The notes under the pieces were generated by a model. It made no database searches. It was not told the origin of the DNA and saw nothing but the letters and a program-made list of their open reading frames with translations. A DNA stretch of 51,886 nucleotides, filler included, from Candidatus Omnitrophota bacterium (GTDB taxonomy: Bacteria; Omnitrophota; Gorgyraeia; Zapsychrales; JBDRMG01): assembly GCA_043812495.1 (NCBI GenBank). It is 3 parts of 3 records of this genome, joined end to end, with 100 filler letters (N's around TTAATTAATTAA, not from the genome) between each part and the next. Parts side by side here need not be neighbours in the genome. Positions count along the whole stretch, not along the records: positions 42,941 to 51,886 come from JBDRMG010000065.1; 2 more parts are not named here. One strand, written 5' to 3'. Made by a program: the position numbers and the translations under genes. Each line of letters starts with the position of its first letter. Position 1 is the first letter of the stretch. Positions 9,612 through 51,885 of this stretch are shown here, in pieces.

Positions 9612-10874
9612 TTATCCCTCGTATCGTTTTAATACCATTGATGAATGAACACCGGAAAAACCGCTCGATGTTTTGAGCATGCAATGCACCTTCTTTTCTC
9701 GAGCAACATTGGGCACATAATCCAAATCGCATTGCGGATCCGGTTCTTCCTGGTTGATGGTCGGCGGTAAAATATTGCGCTCAAAAATCAATGCAGCAAC
9801 GGCAAGCTCTACCCCATTAGCTCCCGCGAGCGGATGACCAATCATCGATTTTAAAGAACTGATGGGAATTTTGTAAGCATAATCCCCTAAGGACATCTTA
9901 TAGGCGTTTGTTTCAAATACATCGTTTTGGCGCGTAGAGGAACCGTGCGCATTGATGTAATCAATGTCTTGAGGTTTAATACCGGCATCGTTCATGGCTA
10001 AAATAATACTGTCGCTCATCGCGTCACCGTCAGCCGGTAAATCCGTCATATGAAAGGCATTGCAGGTGGTGCCAAAACCAATGATTTCACAGTAAATGCG
10101 TGCCCCGCGCTTAAGGGCATGCTGAAGTTCTTCTAAAACAAGAATGCCACAGCCTTCGGAAATGACAAAACCATTGCGTTGATTATCAAACGGACGCGAC
10201 GCTTTTTCCGGCTCGTGATTTCTTGTGGCCAGGACACTCACCACGTCAAACGCCCCGAAGGTAATCGGCGTGATCGGGGCTTCGCTTGCGCCGGCCAGCA
10301 TAATATCGATTTCCCCTTCCTGGATGGCTTCAAAAGCAAAACCCACCGAATCCGTTCCGGCCGTACAACCCGTCGAGATCGTATTGCAGATTCCTTTGAG
10401 CCCGTATTTGGCCGAAATTTCACTCGATGGTGTGTTGAACATGGAGGCGTCATACAAATCCGGACGGACCATAGACGGGTCAATCGGTTTTTTGCCGCTG
10501 TCGGTGACAAGGGCAAATTCTTCTTCCATGTATTTTGTTCCGCAAATCGCGTTGGCTAAAGAAATGCCCATACGCTCTTTATCGATTTTATTCAAGTCCA
10601 TCTTCGAATCTTCCAAAGCGATTTTGGCACCCACCATGGCAAACTGCACATAACGATCCATGCGGATCGCCTCGTTCTTCGTCAAACCCAACTTAAGGGG
10701 ATCGAAATCGCGCGCCTGCGCGGCAATCTGCGTGTTGAACATCGAAACATCGAATTCTGTCACACGTTTGACGGCCGAAACGCCGTTGATCATTCCTTTC
10801 CAGCAGGCTTCATTCCCGACGCCATTGGGAGAAATCACTCCCGTACCTGTCACGACTACTCTTCTTTTTCTCAT
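9612..10874 (-). CDS. Type II PKS ketosynthase alpha
   Basis: STGCTAGTDSVG (KSalpha-type Cys motif), EAPITPIT, NAHGSSTRQND, KSMIGH, SGFSG. Abuts the CLF gene. Confidence 0.93.
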   Translation of the reverse strand: MRKRRVVVTGTGVISPNGVGNEACWKGMINGVSAVKRVTEFDVSMFNTQIAAQARDFDPLKLGLTKNEAIRMDRYVQFAMVGAKIALEDSKMDLNKIDKERMGISLANAICGTKYMEEEFALVTDSGKKPIDPSMVRPDLYDASMFNTPSSEISAKYGLKGICNTISTGCTAGTDSVGFAFEAIQEGEIDIMLAGASEAPITPITFGAFDVVSVLATRNHEPEKASRPFDNQRNGFVISEGCGILVLEELQHALKRGARIYCEIIGFGTTCNAFHMTDLPADGDAMSDSIILAMNDAGIKPQDIDYINAHGSSTRQNDVFETNAYKMSLGDYAYKIPISSLKSMIGHPLAGANGVELAVAALIFERNILPPTINQEEPDPQCDLDYVPNVAREKKVHCMLKTSSGFSGVHSSMVLKRYEG

Positions 10875-10886
10875 AGTGTCACCCTT

Positions 10887-11882
10887 CTAAACAAGATTAA
10901 ACTCTTTTTTGATCTCTTCTTTATCGATAAACCGCCCCGTGTTTTCCACTTGATGGACAAGATCAACGATCCTTCGATTCAAAGGGGCCTGCGAGCTGAC
11001 ATGCTTGGAGAGTAAATCAATTTCTCCGTTGATATAATCGACCTCGCTTGTTTTTTTGCGCTTGATGCTCTGCAAAATAGAACCGTACAAAGGTTCTTGA
11101 CTCAAGCCAGTCAGGGTTTTATGAATAATGCCGGCGGCCTGATCCATAGGCATGGAGACCAATCCTTCGATACGTTCCCGCGGAAAATCCGGCAAAGACA
11201 CAAGCTGAATGCCTGCTCTTTGCGTGATGGCATAACCTTCTTTAAGAAGCATTATGCTTAAGCGGCACAAATCCAAATCCGAAAAAGTTTCCTGCATGGA
11301 TAGGCCGGTAAGGGCCGGCAGACAATTGTTAAAATTGACAAAGAGCTTGAGCCATTTCATCCCCATGATGTCATCGGAGATAACCACGTCAAACGCCTGA
11401 CCTAAAACCTTCGCGACCTCTTCTAAGATGGAGTCATTGACCGTAAAGGGCCGGCCCATAATCCATTTTCCGTCAAAATTATATGTGATTCGGCCGGGCT
11501 CGATATAAGTCGCGCCAAACATCACGATACTTGAGATCATCTTCTCTTTTTCAAAATGCATGCCGAGAATATTATCCGCCTGCACACCGTTTTGCGTGGT
11601 CAGGCAAATCGTGTGATCGCAATATTCATTATTGTCCCTGTAGGCCTTTTCCAGATCCTGCGTCTTGACGGCAAAGATCGTCAAGTCGTGTTCTTTTTCT
11701 AACCTTTCATCCGTCTTGAGTTTTACATTTTCTTTTCTGATTCCGGCAATGGACAAACCTCGGTCTTTGATCGCCCGGACTTGGTCGGCTCGGCCGATCA
11801 ACGTCACATCATGTCCTGCCTTCGATAAATAAGCCGCGATGATGGAACCAATTGCGCCTGCGCCAATCACAGCAATCGTCAT
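10887..11882 (-). CDS. Ketopantoate reductase (PanE/ApbA) family protein
   Basis: IGAGAIG, AVKTQD, QNG, WLKLFVN, SILQS, SEVDYING. Start at MTIAVIG. Confidence 0.88.
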   Translation of the reverse strand: MTIAVIGAGAIGSIIAAYLSKAGHDVTLIGRADQVRAIKDRGLSIAGIRKENVKLKTDERLEKEHDLTIFAVKTQDLEKAYRDNNEYCDHTICLTTQNGVQADNILGMHFEKEKMISSIVMFGATYIEPGRITYNFDGKWIMGRPFTVNDSILEEVAKVLGQAFDVVISDDIMGMKWLKLFVNFNNCLPALTGLSMQETFSDLDLCRLSIMLLKEGYAITQRAGIQLVSLPDFPRERIEGLVSMPMDQAAGIIHKTLTGLSQEPLYGSILQSIKRKKTSEVDYINGEIDLLSKHVSSQAPLNRRIVDLVHQVENTGRFIDKEEIKKEFNLV

Positions 11883-11895
11883 TTTATCTTTTTCT

Positions 11896-12180
11896 TTATT
11901 GAGAGGGTTCATATTTCTTATAATCAAATCCCACATCACCCAAAAGCTTAATCATCAAACTGTAAAATGCGGGCGGCACTTCCGAATAGAAAGCCTTCAT
12001 AATATCCTGCTCTTCAACGCATTTTGACTGCCGTTCCTGCGCGTTCACTTCGGCGCCCTTCACGACGACTTTATAAGCAATCTGTCGATGAAAAAGTGGA
12101 ATACGTTCAATCAGCGCGTTGAATTTTTCTAAGGCTTCTTTTTCCCATTCCATCTGCATCTGTGTTTGTGGATTAGACAT
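11896..12180 (-). CDS. PCP-reductase/DUF2621-like small protein
   Basis: WEKEA...RIPLFHR...AE..A.ER...V pattern. Overlaps the radical SAM stop. Confidence 0.65.
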   Translation of the reverse strand: MSNPQTQMQMEWEKEALEKFNALIERIPLFHRQIAYKVVVKGAEVNAQERQSKCVEEQDIMKAFYSEVPPAFYSLMIKLLGDVGFDYKKYEPSQ

Positions 12181-13645
12181 AGCTTTGTTCTCCCGCGCTT
12201 GCAGCGGCAAATTTTGAAAGGTTATTCATAAAATCTTTAACGCACAGTTTGACCAACTGGTCGTAATCGCTTTCCATGATTCGGTGAATCCTCTCGGGTT
12301 GTGAATAAAATTCGCGCATGCACCAACTTCCCAGGCGGCCCACTTCTTCGATAGATAAATAATTAGTTGGGATCACGGGATGATGAAAATCCCAATCCTT
12401 AATATTGATATGGTTCGGATCGATCCATCCTTTTTCGACCGATTGATTCCATAATTGAGAACCGGGAACGGGTGTCACGTAATCGAGGGCCATGATGTCC
12501 GGGTCCACATCATTAGCGACGTCCAATCGTTTTTTGATGGTAGCCTCATCGTCATCCTCAAGGCCGATCAAAACGGTTCCCACTGATGATATATTAGCTT
12601 CGCGAAGAGCTTTGACGGTCCCTTTGATTTGCGCAAGCGTTACGCCTTTTCCCTGTTTGGCCAATTGTTCATCGCTTTCCACTTCAATACCGACGAGGCC
12701 CATAAACAGGCCCGATTCATACATGAGCGGCAGTATTTCTTTATGAGCCAGCCAATCATCCGCGCGGCCCAGGCAGACCCATTTGATTTTGTTGCCGCGT
12801 TTAATCTTTAATTCGCAAAATCTTTTAACATTTTCTTTATCGACATTAAAAGCATCGTCTTGAATCACAACGACCTTGACGCCGTATGTTTTCTCCAAAA
12901 GATCCAGTTCGTCCAGTATTTTTTCTGCGGATTTACCCCGCCAGGAAATATAATCCTCCTTGCTGTTTCTTTGATCATACAAACTCCATTGATAACAAAA
13001 TGTGCACGCGCCGGGGCAGCCACGCGAGGTCAGCAATTCGGCAAAGGGTTTCCAGTAGGTGTGGCCCACATATTTATCCATCGGAAAAAGGTCATAGGCC
13101 GGCATAGGTAAATCATTTAAATTGGCCATGGGGCAGCGGTGCGGGCCCATCACGATGGACCCTTTGGAATCGCGCAAAACAAGCCCGGCAATTTTTGAAA
13201 AATCATCCGACCCGCTTTTAAGAGCATTAACTAAATCTGAAATCGTCAGCTCCCCTTCCCCCATCGCAATAAAATCAATTGGGGGATTTTGCTCTAATGT
13301 TTCTTTGCAATAGGCTGAATACCAAAGCCCGCCCATAATCACTTTTGTCTTTGGAAGAATATTTTTAATCTTTTTGGCGGTTTCATTAAAATGCCAAATC
13401 ACAGATAACCCACCCGTTGAATGCAAAAGATCGCCAAACACACAAAGATCCGGTTTGATCTCTTTGATTTGTTTTATCATTTCATCACTTGAGATCCCCA
13501 AGGCTTTAGCATCCATCACCTGCACTTCGGCAATCTTTTTCTCCCGTAAATAGGCGGCCACCTGCGCATAATATTGATTGGGGGCTTTGTGATCGCCGTG
13601 TGTGGCCCATGAACCCATGGGTGGTGTAATAAATAAAACTTTCAT
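12173..13645 (-). CDS. Cobalamin-binding radical SAM enzyme (BchE-like architecture)
   Basis: N-terminal B12-binding-like domain (MGG, GEGE), SRGCPGACTFC CxxxCxxC motif, TPVPGS. GGAG RBS before ATG 13645. Confidence 0.92.
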   Translation of the reverse strand: MKVLFITPPMGSWATHGDHKAPNQYYAQVAAYLREKKIAEVQVMDAKALGISSDEMIKQIKEIKPDLCVFGDLLHSTGGLSVIWHFNETAKKIKNILPKTKVIMGGLWYSAYCKETLEQNPPIDFIAMGEGELTISDLVNALKSGSDDFSKIAGLVLRDSKGSIVMGPHRCPMANLNDLPMPAYDLFPMDKYVGHTYWKPFAELLTSRGCPGACTFCYQWSLYDQRNSKEDYISWRGKSAEKILDELDLLEKTYGVKVVVIQDDAFNVDKENVKRFCELKIKRGNKIKWVCLGRADDWLAHKEILPLMYESGLFMGLVGIEVESDEQLAKQGKGVTLAQIKGTVKALREANISSVGTVLIGLEDDDEATIKKRLDVANDVDPDIMALDYVTPVPGSQLWNQSVEKGWIDPNHINIKDWDFHHPVIPTNYLSIEEVGRLGSWCMREFYSQPERIHRIMESDYDQLVKLCVKDFMNNLSKFAAASAGEQSYV

Positions 13646-13661
13646 TTCTTTCTCCATTTTT

Positions 13662-14207
13662 TTACTTTTCTGGATATTGTCCTTCAAAATCACCATTATT
13701 TCTGTTGAACACATCTATATAAAATTTACACACGGCTGGGTCATCCTGCGGCATATGAAGATGAGAATCTTCTGTTGCTTTCTTCCATCGACCGTTTTCT
13801 TTTTCAAAGGATACCCATCCCTCAAAATTTTCTGTAAAAATTCCCATATCGTTTCTTCCGTATATAATGACCGCATTTTCTTCATTGGCCAAAACTTTCT
13901 TTATTACAATAGTATCTTCATTTCCTACATCGGCTAATCTTAACTCAAAGTTATTCCTGCTTTCTTCTTCTGAAACCATAGGTTGTTCATTATATAATTT
14001 ATCCGACTCTGCAAATTCCTTTAAATAACTAGCCGTATATCTTTTCTCTACTTCAGTAAATTCTTTCCAATTATTCGTAAGATTAATGTCTCTTAGGTAA
14101 GATCTAAACATATCTACAACTTCTTTTTGATTTTGATCATAATTTTCTTGAGCATAAATCAACATAGGTACCGTAAAGATCAAGATAAAAACAAGTAAAA
14201 TTCTCAT
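13662..14207 (-). CDS. Hypothetical secreted protein (AT-rich)
   Basis: AGGAGG RBS, signal peptide ending IYA|Q, EKENGRWK C-terminal motif. Confidence 0.75.
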   Translation of the reverse strand: MRILLVFILIFTVPMLIYAQENYDQNQKEVVDMFRSYLRDINLTNNWKEFTEVEKRYTASYLKEFAESDKLYNEQPMVSEEESRNNFELRLADVGNEDTIVIKKVLANEENAVIIYGRNDMGIFTENFEGWVSFEKENGRWKKATEDSHLHMPQDDPAVCKFYIDVFNRNNGDFEGQYPEK

Positions 14208-15772: not shown

Positions 15773-16768
15773 TTAATTCACCGGCACTTGCTGCCATAAT
15801 TCAAAAATGCGACTGCACGGTGCATACCATTTGGAAATCTTGGCAAAATCCCCGCGCAAGTCCATTTTCTTCTGGGTCGTGGCCACAAACGGATCGATTT
15901 CTCTATTGAAAACGGCACGCCAAATATCCTCGGACGCCGAAATCAAAAATTCTGCATTTTCATCTTTACCCACATCGACAATCCGGCCTTCCTTGAATTT
16001 AAAACTATGGATATTCCCCGATTCGTTCAACTTAACGGCCAAATCCATGGTCATCTGCGTTTTTTCTCCCAACTCTTTGAGCTGGGCATCGTTATTCACC
16101 AAGCGGACAATTTCATCAATCTGTTCTTTAGAGAAAAGATCATATTTCTTTAAGGCCTTTGCCTCTTGAGTTGATTGAAGATTTTGGCTTGTGCCCTCCT
16201 GGTAAAGCCGGCGAATGACATCGACTTTGATTGCCTCTTCCAGGCTTTGAATCAGAAGGAAGCATTCAAAAAGATTCTTTCCGGTCGCCACGGCCCCGTG
16301 ATTGCGCAAAACAGCGATATTCTTGTTTTTCATTGCCTGCAAGACGGGCCGAGCGTCTGTAACCGCCGGCGTCGTTTGAGGAACAGCGGTCATTTCCCCC
16401 AGATATAATTTTGATTCAAAAATCGCCGGAGACAATTTTTCGTTGGCGACAAAATAGCCGTTGATATAAACCGAATGCGTATGAATGATGGCCTGCGTAT
16501 CCTTGAAATTTCTATAGATTTCCGTATGGAGTAATTTTTCCGTGGAAACCTCTCCTTTTTCGATCAAGTTGCCGTCAAGATCCATCAGGATCAGGTCTTT
16601 TTCTTCTAAGCGGCCTAAGCAGGTGCCGTGCGCCGTTAAGAGAATAAGCTCTTCGTCCACCCGAACGCTGATGTTGCCGTTGAGGCCGGTCGCAAGATCC
16701 TTATTCCAAAGAAGACGGCCGATCTCGATGATTTCCTGTTTACATTTCTTCACTTTGGCCTTATTCAT
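15773..16768 (-). CDS. Class II aldolase/adducin domain fused to a C-terminal SCP2 lipid-binding-like domain
   Basis: GNISVR, STE..LH, HTHS, LRNHG. C-terminal ~110 aa read AEFLISAS...IDPFVATTQKKMDLRGD (SCP2-like). GAGGTG RBS. Confidence 0.85.
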   Translation of the reverse strand: MNKAKVKKCKQEIIEIGRLLWNKDLATGLNGNISVRVDEELILLTAHGTCLGRLEEKDLILMDLDGNLIEKGEVSTEKLLHTEIYRNFKDTQAIIHTHSVYINGYFVANEKLSPAIFESKLYLGEMTAVPQTTPAVTDARPVLQAMKNKNIAVLRNHGAVATGKNLFECFLLIQSLEEAIKVDVIRRLYQEGTSQNLQSTQEAKALKKYDLFSKEQIDEIVRLVNNDAQLKELGEKTQMTMDLAVKLNESGNIHSFKFKEGRIVDVGKDENAEFLISASEDIWRAVFNREIDPFVATTQKKMDLRGDFAKISKWYAPCSRIFELWQQVPVN

Positions 16769-17247
16769 TTGACCACCTCGGTAATATATTTTGCCGGGAC
16801 CCATTCCACAAGCGGAACAAATCCCTTAATTCCTTTGGGAGCAATGCGCTTATTTTTGAAATTCACTATGTCTTTTTGCGTGCCAAAAAATTTAGTCGTG
16901 CGGCATGACGGATAAAGTCTAACAGGTATTTTATGTTTCCTGCTCATAATGGCCAAGATGAGCGCTCCGACATCGCACAAAGCCCCTTGGCGGCTCACAA
17001 GCTGATAAGCAATCCAAATTTCTTTCACGCAATCTTTGTAAAACAGAAAACCAGCTGAATTATCAGAGATAAGAATTGGTTTGATTCTTTCTTTTAACAA
17101 AGACTTGGCGTTTTTTTGGGCCGCTTCAAGCGTAGGCCGTCCTTCACAAATGACAACGGATTTTGCCTTTTTCTTTTTCAAAAGATCAAAAAACGCTTTT
17201 TGTGGAATTCCCTGCAAAATAATGGCAGATTTCTTTTTAATGCACAT
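16765..17247 (-). CDS. Short eIF-2B/MtnA C-terminal-domain paralog, probably non-catalytic
   Basis: EGRP, ISDNSAG, G..ILAI...HKIPV and EWVPAKYI mirror the MtnA C-domain. It lacks THCN and the GADR/ANKIG motifs. Confidence 0.65.
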   Translation of the reverse strand: MCIKKKSAIILQGIPQKAFFDLLKKKKAKSVVICEGRPTLEAAQKNAKSLLKERIKPILISDNSAGFLFYKDCVKEIWIAYQLVSRQGALCDVGALILAIMSRKHKIPVRLYPSCRTTKFFGTQKDIVNFKNKRIAPKGIKGFVPLVEWVPAKYITEVVK

Positions 17248-19435: not shown

Positions 19436-19948
19436 ATGCAATTATTATATTTCAACCGAAAAAAATCGTTTACTCTTATTGAACTTTTATTAGTGGTTAT
19501 CCTTTTGGGTGTTTTGGCTGCTTTGGCCATCCCAAACTTCGGACCAACCTATGCCAATTTGCAGCTCAGAGAGACAGCCGAGAACATCTCTTATCTGATG
19601 CGTTATGCCCAAAGCCAATCCATTATTAAGGATAAGATTTATCGATTGGTGCTGGAGAATAATGCGACATATTGGATTGAAGAAGGAAGCGGAAATGCTC
19701 AAAATCCGGATCAAGAATTGAACTTTGAAAGGGTCCGTAGCCGGCAGGGACGGATTTTTCGCATCCCTGATAATCTCAGCGTAGAATCCGACGTTTCACT
19801 GATTCAGTTTTATCCTGACGGAACCATCGATAAGGTCCGAATCATTCTGACGAACACAAGAGACAAGACGTATACCTTATCCACCGCCGAACAAGCAGGA
19901 ATGGTTTACGTATTTGATGCTTCGATTGCGCCAAACCCCGCCTTTTAA
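19436..19948 (+). CDS. Minor pseudopilin, GspH/FimT-like
   Basis: S|FTLIELLLVV prepilin motif, FYPDG. Confidence 0.88.
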   Translation: MQLLYFNRKKSFTLIELLLVVILLGVLAALAIPNFGPTYANLQLRETAENISYLMRYAQSQSIIKDKIYRLVLENNATYWIEEGSGNAQNPDQELNFERVRSRQGRIFRIPDNLSVESDVSLIQFYPDGTIDKVRIILTNTRDKTYTLSTAEQAGMVYVFDASIAPNPAF

Positions 19949-38937: not shown

Positions 38938-39546
38938 ATGAAAGAACTCATCGTTGCCACCCGCAACAAGAAGAAACTTCAAGAGATCAGGGTGCTTTTG
39001 GCGGATATGGATTTAGCCATTACCTCTTTGGCGGATTATCCGGATTTGCCCCAAATCGAAGAAGACGGAAAGACCTTCACTCAAAACGCTATTAAGAAAG
39101 CCGCTTCGATTGCCATGGCCACAAAAAAGCTTACTATGGGAGAGGATTCGGGGCTTGAGGTCAAGGCCTTAGGGAACGCACCCGGCGTTTATTCGGCGAG
39201 ATTTTCCGGCGCGAACGCAAATGACAAAAAAAATAATGCCAAACTCTTGCGTTCCCTCAAAGATGTTCCTCTTAAAAAAAGACAGGCCCGCTATCGATGT
39301 CACGTTGCTCTTGCCGACGCGCACGGCCTCATTGATGTGGTCAGCGCCAGCTGCAGCGGCCTGATCGCTTCAAAATCAAAAGGAAAAAACGGATTCGGTT
39401 ACGATCCCCTCTTTATCATCCCGCGGTTTCAAAAAACTTTTGGCGAGCTAGATCCTGTCATCAAAGCCAGAATCAGCCACCGGTCCCGCGCCCTCAAGAA
39501 ATTCAAAAAGGTTATTCAAAAATATTTTGAAGGGTATCGAGGATAA
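38938..39546 (+). CDS. rdgB: Non-canonical purine NTP pyrophosphatase
   Basis: ATRNKKK, EDSGL, APGVYSAR, GFGYDP, SHR. Confidence 0.96.
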   Translation: MKELIVATRNKKKLQEIRVLLADMDLAITSLADYPDLPQIEEDGKTFTQNAIKKAASIAMATKKLTMGEDSGLEVKALGNAPGVYSARFSGANANDKKNNAKLLRSLKDVPLKKRQARYRCHVALADAHGLIDVVSASCSGLIASKSKGKNGFGYDPLFIIPRFQKTFGELDPVIKARISHRSRALKKFKKVIQKYFEGYRG

Positions 39547-42337
39547 AATCTCCGGCCCGCTTGATGACATCGACGGACTCAGGGATCACCAGGTACCTGG
39601 GTTCTTTGAGTGTTCCGGTGAGGCGAATGGTGAGATAATTATCGGTTTGGGTGAGGACGGCCGTAATGATTTTCTTCAAAGACTCCGAACGCGCGATGGT
39701 TTCTTCGCTGAAGCGCGAGAAAAGATAGAAATTCAGATTTCCCGCAAAATCCAACCATCCCCGGCAAAGCATCGTCATGGGCCGGCTTTTGAGCTCAAGA
39801 TCGTCGATCAAAATCCGTTGCTTTTCGATGACAAAATTTCCGGCGGCGTCTTTAAATGTAATATCGGCGTATTCGGGAATCAACAGAAATTTTCCAAAAT
39901 TATCCAGAAGATTAAGTCTCCAGAGGCGGCCGTCCCGGATGGCCGCGGACCCGTTACCCCGCAGGGTGTCCGGTTCTTTGAGAAGACCGGCGAGGGACGT
40001 TTGTCCGGAGAGGATTCCCTGAAATTCTTTGTCTTTTAAATTCAAATCCTTTTTGAGTTCGCCCAAGTCCACCTTTTCAACTTCGAGAACAGCTGAAACA
40101 GGGATATCTTTTTGCGCAAGATCAAAAGAAGATTTGAGCACAATGCTTCCTTTATAGGCTGTCGCGAGCAAATCCAGCTGATGAAAGTTGGAGCTCAAGG
40201 GTTCGAGTTTCATATTGCTGATCTTCGCTTTGTATCCGTTTAAAGAGATTTCCGGGCTTTTGACAACGGCTGAGATTTGCCAATGCGGCCAATCGTTGAC
40301 TTGACCGATGAAGGAACCGGAAATAGAGCAAATCCCTTTTGGCGCAAGGGCTTTAAAACGATCCTCTTGCCCGGGAAAAAGCTGACCGAGGTCTGCAAGA
40401 TCAACATTCAAGTCGCCGGCCAAATCTAGCTGGATATCATCACTCGGATAACGGACATACCCTTGAACGTCAAAGGTTGAATTGTAGTAATTTCCCAAAA
40501 GCGAAGTGATGTTAAAGGCATTCCTCAAAATATCAAGATCCGCTGAAAGATTTAAATGATCCGACGTGAGGGTTGTCTGGAGCTTCGGCTTTTCAAATCT
40601 TTTCATTGAGCCGTTGAGCAAATATTTCGTGTCTTTGAAGTTGAGCGAAAAATTATTCCAACTCAGGCGATTATTGGCGTATTCAAGCTCACCGGCGATT
40701 TTTGTTAAAGGGGCGGGCAGCTTGGATGCCGCGAGGGAGGCATTGCGGATGAGCGCCTTGGCCTGGATCACGGGGACTATTTTGGGAACATCGGGCGCGC
40801 CGTCGTAAGAAAACGAAACTTGCGCCTCTCCCGACAAATCGATGCGCTCTTTTGTGAATATTTCGGGAAAAAACGCCGCCAAATTTTTCAAATCGACTTC
40901 GGATTTTGCCTCAAAACGTATGTATGGTTTTTTAAGATCCTCAATAGCGGCCGAGGAATGAATCAGGGTATCGTACATCTGAAAAGACAAATCTTTCCAA
41001 GTGATTTTGTTTTGTGAATATTTGACGCCGCCCGCGATATCGGAAAGCAAAGCAGGAAGCCTTTTGGCTTTGAGCGTTCCTTTTTCAATTTGAGCGACGA
41101 GATCGATGGAAGGAGTCGGAGATTTGGCCGGATCGATTTTATAATTCACGTTGAGTGCGGCCAGCCCGGAGGTTTCGATCTGCTCTTTCTTGAAAAAGTC
41201 CGGAAAGAAAATGTTGAGCTTCGGAAGCTCGATGGAAGAGTTAAGCGTTGCCTCGATGATCGGATTCTGGAAATTACGCAGGGTGCCGTTGAGTTCAAAG
41301 AGCGTATCGATGGTTTTGCCTTTTAGGGACTCGGCCGTCAGCTCGTTTTCTTTAAAATAGAGGATTCCCTTGATATCCGTGACGGTATCAACAATCGGGA
41401 TTCCCGCAAGACGGCCTTGTCTGGGCCGAACAGCGCCTTGATAAATCAATTTCTTCTCACGCGTTGGATCAAAGTCCAAATCAAATCGGACCGTGGGGTT
41501 GCCGGTAAATGTCCACTTGTCATCAAAAGTTGCCTGAAGATCTTTGATAGAAGAAATGCTGTTAACTTTGACATGATGGTTTTGATAGCGGACGACAAGG
41601 TCGCTTGTGTCCATGAAGGCATGATCCAGACGGACGCGCGAAAGATCAAAATAGAGCGACAAGTATTTAACTAAATTGATATTCTTAATATGGACTTCGC
41701 TATTCACTTGTTGTGACAAAGGATCAAAATCGCCCGACGCCGTCAGATAAGAAAGCTTCTCCTTGCTGCGGCCCGCTTCCAGCGAGAACGACGCGCGTTT
41801 TTTAAGCAGCAAATTTGCTTTGATGTTGACATTTTCGATCAATTCGCCGTATTCGGGATAAAGCATTCGATCCGTGATCTGGATAGCCGAATCCGTAACG
41901 GACAAACGCCCCAGGATCAAAGACGGCAGGGTTGTTTTTTTGTCTTTCTCGCCGGCCGGCAATAAATCGCTAAAGTTCCATCCGCTTTGTTTTTTGCGGA
42001 TCAAGCGGATATAAACGCGGTCCAGCGACAAAGAAGGAATAACGATATTGCGATTCTGCAAGAAGGATAAAAACAGGACATTAAAAGAGATCCGGTCGAC
42101 ATGAAGAAAAATGTCTTTTCTGGACGCGTCTTCAAATATAATGAGATGACGCAGATCAAAACCTTTAATCGGGTTGAATTTGAGGGATTCGATGCTCACC
42201 GGGCGCCTGAGGATCCGTTCGGCCTTTTGGATTACCATTTGCTTCAGGCGGATGGGAAAGTACGTCTTCTTCGCATAGAAAAGAAGAGCGAGAACAATCG
42301 CCGTAAGGGCCGTTAGAAAAAGGAAGAACCTTCGCAT
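39512..42337 (-). CDS. AsmA-family (bridge-like lipid transfer) protein
   Basis: N-terminal TM anchor, GWNFSDL, repeated beta-rich segments, C-terminal L.GTL.EP. Confidence 0.85.
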   Translation of the reverse strand: MRRFFLFLTALTAIVLALLFYAKKTYFPIRLKQMVIQKAERILRRPVSIESLKFNPIKGFDLRHLIIFEDASRKDIFLHVDRISFNVLFLSFLQNRNIVIPSLSLDRVYIRLIRKKQSGWNFSDLLPAGEKDKKTTLPSLILGRLSVTDSAIQITDRMLYPEYGELIENVNIKANLLLKKRASFSLEAGRSKEKLSYLTASGDFDPLSQQVNSEVHIKNINLVKYLSLYFDLSRVRLDHAFMDTSDLVVRYQNHHVKVNSISSIKDLQATFDDKWTFTGNPTVRFDLDFDPTREKKLIYQGAVRPRQGRLAGIPIVDTVTDIKGILYFKENELTAESLKGKTIDTLFELNGTLRNFQNPIIEATLNSSIELPKLNIFFPDFFKKEQIETSGLAALNVNYKIDPAKSPTPSIDLVAQIEKGTLKAKRLPALLSDIAGGVKYSQNKITWKDLSFQMYDTLIHSSAAIEDLKKPYIRFEAKSEVDLKNLAAFFPEIFTKERIDLSGEAQVSFSYDGAPDVPKIVPVIQAKALIRNASLAASKLPAPLTKIAGELEYANNRLSWNNFSLNFKDTKYLLNGSMKRFEKPKLQTTLTSDHLNLSADLDILRNAFNITSLLGNYYNSTFDVQGYVRYPSDDIQLDLAGDLNVDLADLGQLFPGQEDRFKALAPKGICSISGSFIGQVNDWPHWQISAVVKSPEISLNGYKAKISNMKLEPLSSNFHQLDLLATAYKGSIVLKSSFDLAQKDIPVSAVLEVEKVDLGELKKDLNLKDKEFQGILSGQTSLAGLLKEPDTLRGNGSAAIRDGRLWRLNLLDNFGKFLLIPEYADITFKDAAGNFVIEKQRILIDDLELKSRPMTMLCRGWLDFAGNLNFYLFSRFSEETIARSESLKKIITAVLTQTDNYLTIRLTGTLKEPRYLVIPESVDVIKRAGDFILDTLQNIFE

Positions 42338-42391
42338 ATCAGATATTATATCGGAATTCGCTGGAATCAAGAAGAAAGTTCATAACAAAAT

Positions 42392-42840: not shown

Positions 42841-42940
42841 NNNNNNNNNNNNNNNNNNNNNNNNNNNNNNNNNNNNNNNNNNNNTTAATTAATTAANNNN
42901 NNNNNNNNNNNNNNNNNNNNNNNNNNNNNNNNNNNNNNNN
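42841..42940. other. Artificial contig spacer
   Basis: 100 nt of N with central TTAATTAATTAA. Confidence 0.97.
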
Positions 42941-42942
42941 AG

Positions 42943-45900
42943 TGGATGATGTGGGTGTTCGTCCCAGTTGCTGTAATACTTATCATCATGGGGCTTATGA
43001 CGATATTTAAGCCATTTAAGAAAAGAGTGAAAGCCTTCGCAACAGCCTTATTACATGAAGAGATTTACTCTATTCCTGGCGAAGATTGGTATATCGGTCC
43101 TGAGGAATCATTAGCATATCTGGATGCGAAACTCAAAGCCATATGCATAGTATTAGATTCTAAAAATAATTATTCCTCCCGGGCTAAGGAAGCAGCATTA
43201 GGATCATTGAGTCATTTATTAGACAGGACTTCCATCCATAATAGGGGGCATGAAAATATCCCTATGGCCAAGGCTGCTATTATTGTTTTAGGCAGGTTAT
43301 CAGCTGAGGATGGGAAATTGGCATTTGATTGCGGAGAAGGCAAGGAATCTATTTATAAATCTGCAGTCGCTTCTGTTAATGACTTGATGAATCAAAAAGA
43401 AAATAATTATGCCAAATTAATAGCTCTTGGAATTGTGTTAACTCATCCGACATGGGAAGAAGATAATGTCATCAAGCAAAAGGCATCGGAGGCATTAGAG
43501 CTTTATCTTGGCAAAGAAGGAAAAGAGGGTGAGCTTGCAGGAAAGATTAAGCAAGAGGTAGCTAAACCTTCAGACAATTTCTCTCTGCCACAGGAAATCA
43601 GCGCTAGAGGTTCATTGATTGCCGGGTTGATTTCATTAGCCATAGGAATAGCGCTATACCTTTTTACGCTGGAGCCCGTCCTTTTAATGGATTCATTGGC
43701 AATGTGGATCTCTTTAATAGCAGCAGGAATATATTTTCTTCAGGCTTTGGATTTGTCTGGCCTGTCCTATAAAATAAAAGCTTTAAAAATTAACCACAAA
43801 TTAATCGCTCCTTTCAAAGACGCCTTGCATTCAGAGGCCCATGAGAAGGCCATAACCTATGTCAAAGGTCAAAAATTATATGTCAACAAAACCAAAATGG
43901 CTCAAAGGCCACAGGCCTTACAGTATTTTTATTATGCACATGAGTTGATTCATATTGAACTTTCAGATGACGGAAAGCCCATAACCAGCCTTGCAAGGAT
44001 AATGCAAGAATTTGTTGGCTATCTGGCACAGCCCTTCGCTGGTTTATTCGTTATCCTTTATGCTGTAATCCAAGGACTTGTAAGACTTGTTATAAGGCCG
44101 GAATATTCTTTCTGGCACAAGATCGAGAATTGGCTTGAAGCAATTTCCATGGGGGGTTTGGCTTTGGCCCTCTTGTGCTGGGTGATGATTGCCTTTGGAC
44201 TTCTGCTTGGAGTGCCCGCATATCTTAATACTAATATCAATGCTTTAGAAGCCAGATATCGTACAGCTTCAGAAAATAAATATTTCAATATTCCAAGTGA
44301 GTTAAAGGCGTTTCTCGTAAGAAAGGTATTGCTTTCAGATTTGAAAGGTTTAAGCAAAGACGAAATAGAGGAACTAGCCATCGAATCTTTAAGAGAACAA
44401 GATAGAGAATCTTTCGACGATATGTGGGTATTTCCCGCATATAAATCGTTGGAATATTTAGAAAAGAAAATCGCTGCTATATATACAGTTCTCGATTCGC
44501 CTGAAAAGTATAACGTTAGATCGAGAATCTTAGCCGTCGAAAAGCTTGCACACCTGTTGGATCCAAATTCTCGACACAACAAGGAGCATGACAATGTTCC
44601 CATGGCCAAAGCAGCCATCGTTGTCTTAGGCAAATTACCGGTCGATGACAGAAAACTTGCCTTTGAATACGGCGACAAAAAAGGATCCATTTATAGTTAT
44701 GCTATTTCTGCCGTAAACTTTTTACTTTCGCAAGAGGAGAATAATTATTCTAAACTTTTAGCTATCGGGATCATATTAACGCACCCCTGCTGGGAAGATA
44801 ACCAAGACGCAAGAAGCAACGCCCTGAATGCCTTAGGCCATTACCTGAAACTCGAAGGTGGGGAAGGCGTATTGGCAAGACAAATTGAAGAACAAAAGAA
44901 TGTTCCATTTTCCCGGCCTTCCCCAATGATCAAGTGGCATGATCCCCTGGAAGATGCTGATTCCATCAAAGACGTTGAGCGGGACCTCAAGGGTGAGTAC
45001 GCCTTGGATAGCGATGGCGTGATCCGAAGCCTTATCCGCGATGGAAGAATCATTGAAATTGCTTATAACGACAGAGAAGGAAAGCTTTTTGCCTACCAGG
45101 TGCGTTATGTGAAAGGTTATAAGCCCGGCATGACTCCGGTCTCAGCCTATAGAGGTCAAGATGAAAACATCAATGATCTTTTGAACCATGAGCAGCAAAA
45201 GGCGCTTATCGATTGGTTAAAAGAAAATAAGATTAGAGGTTCTTTCATCCGATTGAGGGTTGTGCAAAATAGTCTTTTCTTGAACTGGCAAAAAGATATC
45301 AACCATTCCAATATTGCCCATGCGAGCTATAGCGATGTTGCCATTTATATCGGGGAACATCTCTTAAGCACGATCCTAGCCAATGAGTCCTTGCGCACCA
45401 AGATCCTTGACCAAGACGAAGTGTTGCACTTGAAAGATAGAGACTTTAGACATTCGATTGATGCTCAATTGCTCAGCGAGCTTGCGTCTATTCCAAGAGG
45501 AGGGGCTAGATCCGTATTCCTTCATTCTCTCACCGAGCGATTACAGGCCAACGGAGATATCAATTATTGGGACAATGAAATAAGCAAGGCGGCAGAAAAA
45601 GACCCTCAACAAAGCTTCTCCGTTAACATACTATTTCACCGCGGGCAAAACGAACTTAAGTTCTTGCCGCTTGCTATTCCACGCTTATTGGCCAACAAAA
45701 ATAATTGGCCACTTCTCATCAGATATGTTACAGCCACCATTTATAATTTTGCCGTATGCGAAGGCGCAGAGAATATCATTATCTCTACAGAAGAAAATGG
45801 TTTAGAAGAAAAACTTATTGCGGATATTCAAGGAGAGATAAAACACAGCTATAAGCGATTTTCCGTCTACGCAAACTTCGGACGCCCTGTCACGGTGTCC

Positions 45901-48900
45901 GGCAATACGGATTTTGAATTTCCGCTTGAGAAAAAACTAACACCCAAGCCTGCATTGTCTGACATGACCGGCTGGAGCATCGGCATAGATATCGGAGGCA
46001 GCAATATAAAAACAGTTCTTCTGAAGGGACGCGCAGTCATGGCGTCATTCTCTGAGCCTATCCAAAGAGGCGAAGGAGGAAAGTGGCTCAAGGAAAAAGT
46101 GCTGGAATTGATCGCAACAAAGATTGATGAAAAACGAATGATAGAAAGCAATGGGCCGATCACGGCCGTAGGAATCACTTTCCCGTCGCCGATAGAAAAA
46201 AGAGCGGATGGAACGGCAAGGGTCGTCAGGCTGACTAATTTTGAACGCTATTGGGCCGAGGCGCGCTCAGGAAATACTGATTTTAGCCAGGATTATGAAC
46301 ACATCAACGGCATTGCGCAGGCCGTTAAAGATCGCTTTGGAATTGAGACGGTCGCTGTTATGAATGATGCGAACGCGTTTGGGTTTGCTCAAGCCCTTGA
46401 GGACTATTATGCCAACGGACAAGCCTATGGCGAAGGAGTCAAAGTCATCTTGCCTATCGGAACGGGCCCGGGTTATGTCAAAATTAAAGACGGCATCGTT
46501 GAGGAAATTTCTCAACAAGGCGGACACATGGTGATTGATATGGCTTCTGATGCAGAGATAGACCCGGGTTGCGGCACAGCAGGATGTTATGGTGGCTATG
46601 TACCTGCGAGCGTAGCTGATTTGCGGGCAAAGAAAGTCGGAATAGACATTTCGGGAAGAGACAATCTTATCCCCACCGATCTTAATCATATGCTTCTGCT
46701 ACTGGAAGATATCGCCAATCACATTGCTATTGAGGCGGCGAAATTGCATATAATAACCGGGGCGACAGAAATTATCTTGGCAGGCGGAGTGACGCAGGAT
46801 AAAACAGGAGCCGTGCTTATTGATGAGGCGAATCAAGCCCTAAGAACAAGGTACCCTTGGCTAGAGCATAAAGTAGCCATAAACTTAAGCGCCTTAGACT
46901 TAAACTGGTCAGGCGCCAAGGGAGCCGCGCAGTACGCCCAAGCATTTTTGCAAACACAAGAAATCTCAAATCGACCAAAGTGGAATGAAGAATACGACCT
47001 GCCCGCAACAATAATCGGCACCGATCTTATTGCGTCAACACTCGGCGAGCTTAAAGACAACCGGTACTGTTTTATACTGACCAATGAAGTGCGCGCATAT
47101 TTAGAGCGTATGGGGTATATCTGGCTTGACGAGGAAAAGGTCGTGACGATTGATAATGCCGAAATCGAGCCGTTGCAGCAACACATACAAGACGCTGGCT
47201 ATTCCACTCTGGTTGTCATCGGGGCGGGCACAGTGATTGACTGGGCCAAATACATTGCTCAGCAACTTGATTTAAGAATGATATGCATCCCCAGCACGTT
47301 ATCGGCTAATGGTATGTTTACCGAAAAGGCCATCTTTTATTCAGGGAAAGGGAAGGTGAGACGGAGAGTATCAGAATATGCAAGGCCGCCTTCTAAGGTG
47401 CTCATGGATATTGGTCTGTTAAGGGATTTCCTCGGATTCACCTCAAGCACCGGAATCGGAGGCAAACGCGCCAACCGTGCGGGCGCGGGAGATATTGTGA
47501 GCATATTCCCCGCACTCCTCGATTGGCAGCTGGCCAAAACCCAAGGAAAAGAGGAAATCGATGAGGTGATATTCGAAAGGGCACAGAGCATTTTAGAAAT
47601 CTTAAGACAAACCGCGAGGCAAGTTCGCGACAATACGACATTGGGTATGATTATTCTCACCGAGCTGATGCTCGAAGCCTCATTGCTGAATATGCGCTAT
47701 GGCACCTCAAGACCCAAAGACGGAAGTGAGCATCTTGTGGGCGATGAAATGGAAAGACGACTCCCCGTCGGCACGCCGAGACTGCATGGTGAGATTGTTT
47801 CGGTCGCTACTATTATTATGTGTTATCTCTATAGAAATGAATATGAACCGGAAGTCTACGATAATACTAGAAAATTAATCAAGGACTTAGGTTTACCGGT
47901 TAGCCCGCATGCCATCAATGTGAGCAGAGACATCTTGGTGGACGCTTTAACGCATGTCCATATCAGAGCTGATAAGTATACTTATTTTGACAAATATCCG
48001 CCCGCAAGAGAAAAAGCAGAAATTTTATATGATGAGCTCTTTGGAGACAGGACAGATAGCCTTGTCGAATATGATTATCCGACGTCTCAATATGTGAGTA
48101 ATTCAGCGCGACTGCTTGATGAGCATATTACAAGTGAAGTGATTCCAAGCTTAGAAAGCGCACAGCTTTCGCAACTCGTCGATGCGTTAATCGAAACAAA
48201 AGAAAAAAGAGGACGAATTATCCTGAATGCCGCCGGACGGGTTGGCGAGGTGGCGGTATTCTTCGTTCAGAAACTAAGGGCCTTGGGTTATAACGTTGAT
48301 GATTTGAAGGAAATCACTCCGGAGTTTTTAATCGATCCAAATGATTTGATTATTACCTTGTCCGGCTCAGGGAAAACAGGTTCGGTCGTTGACAACATTA
48401 ACAATATTGTGCATATGCATAAGACAGGTAAGTTGCATAGGCCTATCTTTTCCATTACAGCACGTCGAGGAGTCGATACATGGGCCAAGGGTGATCCTTA
48501 TCATATGGTGATCAAGATCCCTGGCCGCTCCAAAGATGATTTTGCGCACAAAGAAGAAGAAGGCAATTCGGGCTGGCTGCCTCTATCTTCGACATTTGAA
48601 TACAGCGTGGCCCTCTACTTAGAAGGCGTCATCGAGATCCTGTCACGCGGCTCTACCTTAAAAGATGAGCGATTTGAAATACTGAAAGATGTCTTAAAAC
48701 TCTCCCAACGAATAAAAATGAATCTCATTCATAAGTTAAAAGACATAGAATTTCAGACAGAGGAATTTCTGCAAATATTATTAGAGGCGTATCGACATCA
48801 AGACAAAAGAATTTATTTGTTTGGTTTAGGCCAGAATAACTATGTAGCAAGATTATTCGCCAGAAGACTTCAAAATATTGGTCTTGATGTATTTGTGCCG

Positions 48901-51885
48901 GGTCCAAGAGACATCGTCTCAAGATCAAGGGTTGGTGATGTGGCTATATTCTTATCCAACTCAGGCAGCCGAGGACAAACATTCCAGAAGATTGAAACGG
49001 CCATAGAAGAGGGATGTTTTACCATCGTTGTTACGGCAGATCAAAATTCACAATTGGCTCAGAAAGCCGATTTGGTTCTCCATATTTCCGAAGAGACCAC
49101 ATCCTCTCATACAGCGGATATTATGGGAAATAATGATTATAGCATTTACCAGAGATTGCTGAAAAGATCCTTTGAGCTTATGAGCATGTTTTATCTTGAA
49201 GGGATCAGTGTTGCCTTAATGAAAAAATTAGGCCTTAAGGACAAAGACCTACAGCATGTCGCAAAGTCTTGGGAAATTAGCGCCAAAGGCTCCATGGCGC
49301 TTATGTTTGTCGCGCTAGCTATCGGTCTTGTCGCAAGCGGCTTGCTGTCTTTGGTCTTTTACTTTGTGGCCGCTATATTTTTCTTACAGTCCATCGATTT
49401 ATTCATAACGAGAGAAGCTCGCGCCGGGCCGTCGCACAATCTCATTGCTCCCTTCCGAAGAGCCCTTGATGCGAATCCCGCCAGCAATCAACTCGCCTAT
49501 GTTCAAGATCAAACATTATACGTCCATAAAGCGTCCATGGCCCGAAGACCGAAAGCGGTGCAGGTTTTCTATTATATGCATGAGCTTACCCACTTGTTCC
49601 TCGAAAAGATGAATATAAAAACAAAATTCCTGCAGGAGCCGCTGGCGTACTTGGCTCAAATTCCGCTATTGATCGTTTGGATATTCATTGTTATGGCAAA
49701 AATAATTTTGTGTGGCTTGCCGAAATTTACAGACGGTGAAAAGATCCTTTGGTCAACACCTGTGATTGCGGCACACGGGATGGAAAGTATTGAACAAGCC
49801 AGGGAAGCGATCGCCAGAGGAGCCAAAATGCTTGAAGTTGATGTTCAATTGACCAAAGATGGCCGGTTTGTCGCCATCTGGGGTAAGGTCAAAACAACTT
49901 CCGGCGAGAAATTAGTCTACGAACTTACAAAAGAAGAAATCAACACGGCCTTAGAACGGGAAGTTCTTGATCTGAAAGATTTATTCAAATTAGTTTCCGA
50001 AAAGGGTGCGGCGCTCATGCTGGATACAAAAGACTGGGCCCGCGATGTTCCCGGATATACAGATGAATATATTAAGAAACTTGCCGGCATGATCAGAGCG
50101 CATAATTTGCAAGGATTTATTCTTGCTTCGGCCTTTAACGATTATCCGGTTTTACTGAAGAAAAAGGTTCCCGAGGTCTTGGCGGGTCAATGCATGCACG
50201 TATCGGAAAATCCGTCAGAAGTCTTAGGCAGCTATATCGAACAGGCAGAAAAGTCTAATGCCGCGGTAATCGCTTTTCAGCCGCAAAAGTTGACAAGAAG
50301 CCTAATCGATAGAATGCATCAAGCGGGCTTATTCGTTCAAACAGGTTGGGATGAATTGGACAGGAAATTAGCCGGTGATATCGAAATTATATGGGCGGAT
50401 GATTATCAGGACGCATTGGCTGAGACAGAAAAAACAGAAAATCAAAACCTTGAGACAGGCTATAAAAAATCAATGGTCGCAACAAAGGCTTTCATCGCTG
50501 ACTTTAGCATGACCGTAGCCTTACCAGCTGAGGAAGGGGAGCAGTTCCCGCCATTCGAAATAGAATTAGGCCGGTTAGTGGCTGAAGAAATCATAGATGA
50601 ACAGCAAAGAACGGAATTCCTTCAATCAGTTGATCGAGCTTATGCCGAATTTATGAAAATTCGTCGTGATTTGGCTATTCCGTACCATGAACGAATGGAA
50701 ACTTGGCTCAAACCTTTTGTAGGCAAATTGCATCGAAGACATTTTGAGGCACTGGTGAAAGACTTTCGACTGAATCCCAACTTTATCAAGACAGTTGGCA
50801 TCATGAAAGAAGTCATGGCCCTTGACGGTATTAACATCAAAATAGCTACGGGCACTTTGACTCAGGTTATTGAAGCCTTTTTCGACAGAAAAGATGTTGC
50901 CCAACAGTTCAAAGAACACAATATTAATGTGCACACAATCATTGCGGCGGAACTAATTATGAATCAAGGCGGTTATTATACAGGAAGGATTAAAGAAGTA
51001 AACAATCCCCTTATTACGGTTGGTTCAGAAGCTTATTCTGAAGGAGAAATTGTTATCGGGGATGATGCGATGGAGCCATGGTTTACGCAGCAAGTTTTAA
51101 TCAATGCTCAAAGTTTTGATGAAAAGAAGATTCGGCAACAACTTCGAGGATATGATATTCGGTTAAGCAAATGCGAGCGCGGGGGTATATTCATTCAATT
51201 TGAATCTGCTGAAAGAACTCTTATCAGCGTTTCACCCAAATGGTCTATGGCCGGTTTTACCATGCAATTTGCCCAGCTTGCGCCAAACGCAAAATTAGCC
51301 TTAGATCAATCTCAAGGAACAATCTACGTCAAGGTGATCACTGGAAGACTTTCCAATATTAACCGTGGTGCCTTTGCAGAGCTGAAAGCCCTAAGAACAA
51401 CATTGGTCAAAGAAGAATATATTCAAGCCGGAATAGGGGGCGCTGTGGTTGCGATAGTTACCAAAACAAGAAATGCGCCCGCGTCCATAACCGATATGAG
51501 TCAAGCCAAAGTGACCGGTCCCATGCAAGAGTTTCTGACTTGGCATAGAGTTGACGAATACGCTTGGGGCAAGGAAGCCTTTAAAGATGAAGCCTTCTAT
51601 AATGTGCCGGCTTTTGAGCTTAATAACAGCCGAGGCGAACGCATTGCCTTTATTCAGCTCTGGAGCGCCGGTCTAGGCGTCAACTGCGGCATGCATAATC
51701 ACAAAGAAACCAATGCGGATAACACATTCTGCGAGATTCATCTCGGATTATTCAACGGCACAGGTCAGGGCGGCATGGTGGATGAACACGAAACACGGCT
51801 TCCCGTCAACGAAGGCGAAGAACACGGGCCGTTCTGGAAGGTCGATCCCAAAACAGGCAAGCCTGTCTTAAGAGAAAACGGCGCT
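42943..51885 (+). CDS. Giant multidomain membrane protein, partial (2981 codons visible, no stop before window end, 5' end at contig edge)
   Basis: Manual translation of frame +1 found no stop. Approximate domains: helical repeat x2 (43100-43560, 44430-44895), TM-HExxH module x2 (43594-44100, 49273-49720), ROK (45970-46940), G1PDH-like (47000-48045), SIS x2 (48100-49275), GDPD-like (49755-50410), HAD-like (50480-51120), AUDH-like cupin (51180-end). Confidence 0.93.

What the first reader, a model, noticed from the sequence alone, without database searches (positions are those of the whole stretch)
42943..51885. Giant open reading frame missed by the ORF track: a chain of sugar and glycerophosphate enzyme domains
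Seen: 2981 codons without a stop, open at the window end. Motifs: ROK (IGIDIGGS, NDANA, GTGPG, GGHM, CGTAGC) and G1P-dehydrogenase-like (GAGTVIDWAK, GD, SRPKDGSEH, LHGE). These are followed by two hexulose-phosphate-isomerase-like SIS domains (AAGR/SGSGKT; FGLG/SNSGS), GDPD-like (LEVDVQLTKDG), HAD-like (DFSMT, ATG, IGDD) and a cupin. Established: Omnitrophota are known for giant multi-enzyme membrane proteins and include predatory or host-attached members. Inference: this segment is a scavenging or prey-manipulating enzyme array.
Basis: partly seen in the sequence, partly recalled or inferred. Interest (0 to 1): 0.8.

Follow-up and report, generated by a model that had tools for sequence, protein, structure and literature searches.

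The report
Giant gene built from captured genes
This is the last 9 kb of an unbroken bacterial reading frame at least 75 kb long, and its enzyme segments match proteins that occur on their own or inside other giant genes, so such giants are likely built by capturing and swapping whole genes.

Summary
The frame is real but mis-delimited. Its 'start' is a contig-joining spacer; it is the last 2,981 codons of a 25,094-codon frame filling contig C65, open at both ends. ROK, G1PDH-like, two SIS, GDPD-like and cupin calls hold; HAD is weak. The kind is published (Omnitrophota multi-enzyme giants), and this scan already noted the upstream 64 kb of this frame and punctuation motifs in other giants.

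New here: the segment is a train of cassettes. ROK-G1PDH-SIS-SIS (about 1,250 aa) is one whole protein, which I found in no paper. It occurs free-standing (1,275-1,382 aa, ending where the block ends) and embedded in other long proteins, and a tree rejects one clade for the embedded copies (p-AU 5.5e-5). The cupin cassette recurs in five other polyproteins under four different separator motifs. This giant has no such separator; membrane HExxH modules sit between its cassettes.

Substrates and cleavage are untested.

The parts
42841..42940 (.). Artificial N spacer joining contigs C62 and C65; source of the false 5' end
42943..51885 (+). Last 2,981 assembled codons of the 25,094-codon frame of contig C65 (C65 residues 22114-25094), open at both contig ends
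42952..43008 (+). Hydrophobic helix, second of a predicted hairpin, followed by a basic patch
   Evidence: hydropathy scan
43018..43494 (+). Duplicated module of no known family, copy 1 (45-55% identical to copy 2)
   Evidence: no Pfam or NCBIfam hit
43594..44214 (+). Membrane HExxH spacer module, copy 1 (HExxH at 43939-43953, downstream Glu before the next helix)
44356..44919 (+). Duplicated module of no known family, copy 2
44977..45492 (+). Domain X: about 170 aa, conserved DExxH...H motif, no family; recurs beside the four-domain block in other long proteins
45520..46977 (+). ROK sugar-kinase domain with N-terminal extension (domain 1 of the four-domain block)
46978..48057 (+). G1P-dehydrogenase-like domain (domain 2 of the block); GD, SEH and HGE motifs align identically with solved G1PDH
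48058..48672 (+). SIS domain 1, hexulose-phosphate-isomerase-like (domain 3 of the block)
48673..49275 (+). SIS domain 2 (domain 4 of the block); ends at the residue where the free-standing proteins end
49276..49746 (+). Membrane HExxH spacer module, copy 2 (RAGP, HExxH at 49579-49593, downstream Glu)
49747..50382 (+). GDPD-like cassette; first His and ExD kept, second His replaced by Trp; 58% identical to a cassette in a 59,091-codon frame (G364)
50425..51108 (+). Probable HAD-fold cassette (weak call); homologs found only in frames of 882-38,661 codons
51115..51885 (+). AUDH-type cupin cassette, cut by the contig end; HxH, E and H motif match the fungal enzyme

Best explanation
The frame is the tail of a giant membrane-threaded protein whose segments match whole free-standing proteins and cassettes of other giants, and it was likely assembled by in-frame capture and exchange of complete sugar-phosphate enzyme genes, which the interspersed HExxH modules would cut free after translation. 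Shown: one unbroken frame; cassette limits that match free-standing proteins or separator motifs; free and embedded copies interleaved on a tree; conserved-site retention close to that of free copies. Inferred: the four-domain block phosphorylates a sugar (ROK), isomerises the sugar phosphate (SIS pair) and reduces or oxidises it (G1PDH-like); its substrate is probably not the textbook one; it needs ATP and NAD(P), so it works in a cytoplasm, the cell's own or a host's. Odds: capture and exchange about 0.85; active block about 0.7; cleavage by the HExxH modules about 0.35.
For: Seven proteins cover 99% of the block at 43-49% identity; six of them are 1,275-1,357 aa. Alignments of all 9 free-standing or IS-split forms examined end at window residue 2111, their own C-terminus. 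The block is also embedded in proteins of 2,010-5,930 aa. Tree of 15 rows: at least 4 free/embedded changes forced, and the window copy is sister to the copy in a DGG-punctuated polyprotein, 99/98. With 3 long-branch rows dropped: at least 3 changes, one embedded clade rejected, p-AU 5.5e-5. The window copy keeps 88% of columns invariant among free copies; free copies keep 90-96% when left out. The AUDH cupin is in 4 of 401 phylum genomes, always in frames of 1,692-25,094 codons, and is flanked by SSP, SSSAG, DGG or LASN in five homologs. A mannose-phosphate-isomerase cassette just upstream in C65 is 66-69% identical to two copies in G478, where one directly precedes the cupin. HExxH plus a downstream Glu is kept in 4 of 5 aligned spacer modules that carry HExxH. 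R[AG][GP]P occurs 21 times against 7.7 expected, and 8 of 21 are followed by [HD]ExxH against 1.7% of random windows (a sample biased by how the proteins were collected).
Against: No cleavage, expression or activity was observed. No separator motif is enriched in this genome's giant pieces, so no cut site can be named. GDPD, HAD and cupin follow one another with no HExxH module between them. Profile comparison did not join the three spacer families, and the window module matched 0 of 167 other genomes of the order. The tree is unrooted, so it cannot tell capture from escape. The 5' ends of free-standing proteins come from gene callers; DNA was seen for only one, which is interrupted by an insertion. 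Topology rests on hydropathy alone. Residue roles are recalled.
Confidence: 0.55

Rival explanations
1. Same capture history, but the protein stays uncut: a membrane-threaded scaffold that holds the enzymes on the cell's own cytoplasmic face, with the HExxH modules as structural or metal-binding spacers.
For: No separator motif in this genome's giants. Basic patches after the helices put the block and both HExxH modules on the inside (read by eye). Nielsen and Lui list this reading for TM-only giants.
Against: The same cassettes sit between fixed separator motifs in other polyproteins. A C39 peptidase lies at the only 5' start among the giant pieces. The genome has its own ordinary ROK kinase.
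Confidence: 0.25
2. One reading: an extracellular pathway that strips prey lipids and sugars (GDPD releases glycerophosphate, G1PDH oxidises it, and so on).
For: GDPD-like and G1PDH-like domains lie in one frame; the giant holds the genome's only GDPD match. Published giants are linked to predation.
Against: The cassettes occur apart and with other partners elsewhere. The second GDPD His is Trp. G1PDH scores 146 against a cut-off of 413 and has family-wide changes in the SHDG and RPASGSEH motifs. ATP and NAD(P) are scarce outside cells (general knowledge).
Confidence: 0.1
3. Neutral accretion: captured genes are passengers that decay, and only the open frame is under selection.
For: GDPD and HAD cassettes depart from catalytic consensus; the first HAD Asp is poorly kept among homologs. 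One free-standing copy of the block is interrupted by an insertion.
Against: 88% retention of invariant columns at 46% mean identity. The odd residues are invariant across the family. The GDPD His-to-Trp change is shared by 3 of 5 aligned copies.
Confidence: 0.08
4. Assembly artefact: separate genes fused by misassembly.
For: Short-read assembly broken at repeats. No public contig spans the stretch.
Against: 0 stops in 75 kb of one frame against 1,030-1,808 in the other five. The same domain neighbours recur in other genomes. 9 of 10 short public contigs match without a difference, one across the spacer/GDPD junction (one study, possibly the source's campaign).
Confidence: 0.02

Closest known systems
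Archaeovorin-type giant proteins of Omnitrophota (West-Roberts et al. 2023, bioRxiv 10.1101/2023.11.21.568195); 'multi-enzyme metabolic clusters', sugar module 2 (Nielsen and Lui 2026, 10.64898/2026.06.07.730766)
   Same: Very long frame, many hydrophobic helices (59 in C65), TPR, GT5/GT1, peptidase and ROK domains, C39 peptidase at a 5' start.
   Different: In the parts I read, neither paper matches segments to whole free-standing proteins, shows exchange between giants, or mentions separator motifs or zincin spacers (one search found no 'cleav', 'motif', 'zincin', 'SIS' or 'cupin' in the 2026 text). No SecA-like domain was found in the giant pieces here.
Motif-punctuated Omnitrophota polyproteins
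   Same: Share the cupin, mannose-phosphate isomerase and four-domain cassettes at 32-69% identity.
   Different: This giant has no enriched separator; helices and HExxH modules lie between its cassettes.
sn-Glycerol-1-phosphate dehydrogenase (NF002022), 6-phospho-3-hexuloisomerase (TIGR03127), ROK kinases (allose kinase NF007251)
   Same: Best family and solved-structure matches of the block's domains.
   Different: Fused in one chain; scores 146/413, 49 and 66/160, 33/253 against the cut-offs; family-wide changes in substrate motifs.
Fungal aldos-2-ulose dehydratase (PDB 4A7K, Pfam PF18637)
   Same: Cupin domain with the same HxH, E and H motif, E 1.1e-15.
   Different: Only the cupin domain matched; it travels as a cassette of about 290 aa in bacterial polyproteins, next to or near mannose-phosphate isomerase in 3 of 5 homologs.
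Polyvalent proteins with zincin-like peptidases (recalled; also named in note e1-9713050)
   Same: Unrelated cargo domains interspersed with HExxH modules.
   Different: Those are mainly phage or conjugative-element proteins; homology to their peptidases was not shown here (only a sub-0.9 lead to Peptidase_M78).

Membership tests
Archaeovorin-type giant protein | At least 30,000 aa ('giant'; 10,000 is 'large') | tested here: inconclusive
   C65 alone gives 25,094 codons, open at both ends. The C11-C37-C65 link passes 34,000 but runs through a repeat.
Archaeovorin-type giant protein | Numerous transmembrane helices | tested here: met
   59 hydropathy peaks in C65.
Archaeovorin-type giant protein | Glycosyltransferase, TPR, peptidase, methyltransferase and sugar-metabolism domains; no dockerin | tested here: met
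   GT5, GT1, TPR and M23 in C65; methyltransferases in other pieces; no dockerin hit.
Archaeovorin-type giant protein | C39 or S8 peptidase near the N-terminus | tested here: inconclusive
   C39 at residues 188-311 of the C45 piece, which is not physically linked to C65.
Archaeovorin-type giant protein | Divergent SecA DEAD domain (in most) | tested here: not met
   Two matches in the genome, in frames of 997 and 476 aa, none in a giant piece; the gene is incomplete.
Archaeovorin-type giant protein | Secretion locus upstream, pilZ genes downstream | tested here: inconclusive
   Both ends of C65 are open. A PilZ pair lies 8 kb into C43, tied to piece C35 only by a 96% repeat match.
Archaeovorin-type giant protein | Host is Omnitrophota | tested here: inconclusive
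   No label for G000. The only named genome hit is an Omnitrophota record, whose NusA is 56% and IF2 65% identical to G000's.
Motif-punctuated polyprotein | One short motif repeated between cassettes | tested here: not met
   De novo scan lists none; SSP[VI] 0, GARL 1, RSExR 4 in 93,478 aa.
G1P dehydrogenase (NF002022) | Score above the equivalog cut-off | tested here: not met
   146 against 413.
G1P dehydrogenase (NF002022) | Metal ligands Asp, His, His (roles recalled) | tested here: met
   GD, SEH and HGE align identically with 5FB3 and 4RGQ.
GDPD phosphodiesterase | Two catalytic His and an ExD metal motif (roles recalled) | tested here: not met
   First His and ExD kept, second His is Trp.
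HAD phosphatase | DxDxT motif and family match | tested here: inconclusive
   First Asp kept, second is Ser; TIGR01488 E 0.01; 1 of 9 members hits Pfam HAD; no HAD among solved structures.
AUDH cupin (PF18637) | Score above cut-off and metal motif | tested here: met
   120.5 bits against 25; motif aligned with 4A7K.
Zincin metallopeptidase (spacer module) | HExxH with a third ligand | tested here: met
   Both window copies have HExxH and a conserved downstream Glu.
Zincin metallopeptidase (spacer module) | Family or fold match; proteolytic activity | tested here: inconclusive
   No Pfam or NCBIfam hit; Atlas leads under 0.9; activity not testable here.

The most novel reading that the evidence does not exclude
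Omnitrophota run a phylum-wide cassette economy: whole enzyme genes move in and out of giant frames and are re-fitted with each host protein's own separator (SSP, DGG, LASN, SSSAG, or a membrane HExxH protease as here). The giants are self-processing delivery trains that release ATP- and NAD-dependent sugar-phosphate enzymes into a host cytoplasm, and the four-domain ROK-G1PDH-SIS-SIS protein is such an effector with an unknown substrate.
Probability: 0.2. Interest if true: 0.85.

Novelty: new member of a known kind. Interest (0 to 1): 0.5.

Why it matters
How Omnitrophota giant genes take up new domains, and whether the products are cut, are both left open by West-Roberts et al.. This locus gives direct sequence evidence for whole-gene traffic between free genes, mid-size proteins and giants. 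It also offers small stand-ins that can be expressed: a free-standing 1,275-aa version of the four-domain block, a 290-aa cupin and a 150-aa HExxH module. The giant gene itself is of a known kind. The four-domain enzyme appears undescribed.

Tried and rejected
A separator motif in this giant: none by de novo scan or by testing motifs from earlier notes. An RGG at the place where the sister copy has DGG is one case with different spacing; not counted. One family for the three spacer modules: not supported by profile comparison. An operon of separate ROK, G1PDH, SIS, GDPD, HAD and cupin genes as donor: not seen in the 3 long loci examined of 6 returned. Viral carriers of the block: 0 of 126 pattern hits confirmed. 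My note that GDPD lost both His was wrong; the first is kept. GDPD relatives of 381-2,000 aa: none among 3,749 candidates, weak evidence. Single-sequence fold of GDPD-HAD-cupin: pLDDT 34, unusable, no fold search run. The fold of domain X was still queued. Atlas: no usable hit for domain X. The missing cupin tail was found on no other contig. No RNA holder listed. Two G1PDH active-site papers were not held, so residue roles are recalled. NusA scores against solved structures gave no usable taxonomic control.
Full report
OBSERVATION. The frame 42943-51885 has no stop in 2,981 codons; the other five frames have 118-210 and shuffles at least 139. The window is a concatenation of contigs C59, C62 and the last 8,946 bases of C65, joined by N spacers. 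All of C65 (75,284 bases) is one frame of 25,094 codons, open at both ends. So the 'start' is false and the genes to the left are not neighbours. Sixteen long edge-open pieces on 14 contigs sum to 93,478 aa. Only the C45 piece has a free 5' start, with a C39 peptidase. End overlaps link C45-C12, C11-C37-C65, C42-C53 and C63/C20-C32-C52-C19-C35, several through repeats. One gene of about 90,000 codons is possible, not shown.

DOMAIN CALLS. ROK, Fe-ADH_2, two SIS, GDPD and AUDH_Cupin are confirmed by Pfam and, except ROK as a single sequence, by solved-structure sequences; the family profile does reach glucokinases. All NCBIfam scores lie far below the equivalog cut-offs. HAD is weak.

THE BLOCK IS A WHOLE PROTEIN. 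A search with window residues 853-2115 returned 10 proteins among 7,999 scored candidates; 7 cover 99% at 43-49% identity, six of them only 1,275-1,357 aa long. An exhaustive search added further forms. All 9 free-standing or IS-split forms end at the residue that aligns with window residue 2111. Embedded copies occur in proteins of 2,010, 2,212, 2,834, 3,767 and 5,930 aa and in G460 and G481. In G481 a DGG separator directly precedes the block and none lies inside it. Of 401 phylum genomes, 181 matched the SIS pair. The 7 non-self matches below 1e-18 lie in frames of 926-54,392 codons; the other listed matches are weak (E above 1e-8) and in frames of 190-616 codons. On a 15-row tree free and embedded copies need at least 4 changes, and the window copy is sister to G481 (99/98). 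Dropping the three long-branch rows P0010, P0015 and P0016 leaves at least 3 changes and rejects one embedded clade, p-AU 5.5e-5. The tree is unrooted, so direction is unknown. The window copy keeps 88% of columns invariant among free copies (free copies 90-96% when left out) at 46% mean identity. Its unusual residues, such as QGGH and DPGC in ROK, RPKDG in G1PDH and GLGQNNY in the second SIS, are invariant across the 8 aligned members, so they mark a family rather than decay.

THE OTHER CASSETTES TRAVEL SEPARATELY. The AUDH cupin was found in 4 of 401 genomes, own included, always in long frames. Five homologs are bounded by SSP (G478), SSSAG (G400, read by eye), DGG (G465) or LASN (L039, P0001) at matching positions. 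In G478 it directly follows a mannose-phosphate isomerase 66% identical to the one in C65, where the two are about 2,770 residues apart. GDPD-like: 5 of 401, best 58% in a 59,091-codon frame that shares further C65 cassettes in another order. HAD-like: 10 of 401, all in frames of at least 882 codons. Partners elsewhere are sugar-phosphate enzymes: PGM, transaldolase, PMI, PGI, aldolase.

SEPARATORS. No short motif is enriched in this genome's giant pieces. Instead the block is bracketed by the two membrane HExxH modules. Related modules lie beside the block in P0014, P0016 and P0023, and domain X beside it in P0003, P0011 (G460), P0012, P0013, P0014 and P0019. R[AGE][GP]P occurs 9 times in 93,478 aa of giant against 4 in 403,071 aa of other frames. 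In a wider, biased set, 8 of 21 such motifs precede [HD]ExxH. Against a protease role: no family hit, no profile link among the spacer families, no match in 167 other genomes of the order, and no module between GDPD, HAD and cupin.

MECHANISM. Shown: frame, cassette limits, interleaving, conservation. Inferred: kinase, isomerase pair and dehydrogenase act in series on an unknown sugar; this needs ATP and NAD(P), hence a cytoplasm. Hydropathy and basic patches put the block on the inner side here (heuristic). Yet P0005, P0006 and the carriers P0003, P0012, P0014 and P0016 begin with signal-like hydrophobic stretches, which would suit delivery to a host. Cleavage by the HExxH modules is my committed guess at about 0.35.

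LITERATURE. West-Roberts 2023 (10.1101/2023.11.21.568195): parts 1-4 of 8 read, abstract to conclusions; describes Archaeovorins, proposes C39/S8 cleavage, and leaves the uptake of new domains open. Nielsen and Lui 2026 (10.64898/2026.06.07.730766): abstract, sections 8, 9, 10, 21 and a term search; catalogues ROK in 44 giants. Seymour 2023 (PMC10066038): 3 passages. PMC4244643: 6 passages, zinc use by G1PDH. Kizina 2022: seen only as cited. Supplements and the Zenodo catalogue were not seen and may list these domains. Searches (listings only) returned no paper on the four-domain fusion, on separators, or on cassette exchange. Roles of catalytic residues, the zincin and polyvalent-protein comparisons, and labels such as transposase are recalled or read by eye.

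TAXONOMY. Inferred as Omnitrophota from architecture, one named record and NusA/IF2 identity to it; earlier notes say the same, unchecked.

VERDICT. The added value is evidence for whole-gene traffic and an apparently undescribed four-domain enzyme. Interest 0.5.

Noticed in passing
G000: C65, C53, C20, C11, C63, C45, C19, C42, C35, C52, C37, C32, C12, C44: Sixteen long frame pieces totalling 93,478 aa, about 14% of the assembly, with a single 5' start; possibly one gene of about 90,000 codons.
   Followed up: partly
G000:C63:17005-17168 and C20:33579-33670 (minus strand): Two breaks where one giant frame stops and the next continues in an overlapping frame; the C63 break falls in a palindromic repeat. 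Real ends, frameshifts or assembly errors.
   Followed up: partly
G000: ends of C20, C39, C63 and inside C32: A 141-base repeat read in frame inside giant pieces also has copies on other contigs (C5, C18, C39, C41).
   Followed up: no
G000:C65 residues 15695-15830, 16766-16890, 19556-19700: Three copies of a REGP...HEN module; two directly precede enzyme cassettes (GT5, nucleotidyltransferase). A homolog opens P0038.
   Followed up: partly
G000:C65 residues about 9100-14200: About 5,000 residues with no hydrophobic helix and one Pfam hit (M23).
   Followed up: no
L039:2-4753, P0001; L047:7337-17230: Polyproteins punctuated by LASN and by SSSAG, separators not among those in the earlier notes I saw.
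   Followed up: partly
L084:3788-9017: A free-standing four-domain gene interrupted by a transposase-like frame, among heme-biosynthesis-like genes; host unknown.
   Followed up: partly
P0005, P0006: Free-standing four-domain enzymes with signal-peptide-like N-termini, sisters on the tree.
   Followed up: partly
L064:5296-19194 (G460): Mid-size genes with a signal-like head and a shared tail carry the block plus domain X, a PGI, and an HPr-containing cargo.
   Followed up: partly
window 39512-42370 (-): A 952-aa frame that looks AsmA-like by eye, on contig C62, unrelated to the giant.
   Followed up: no
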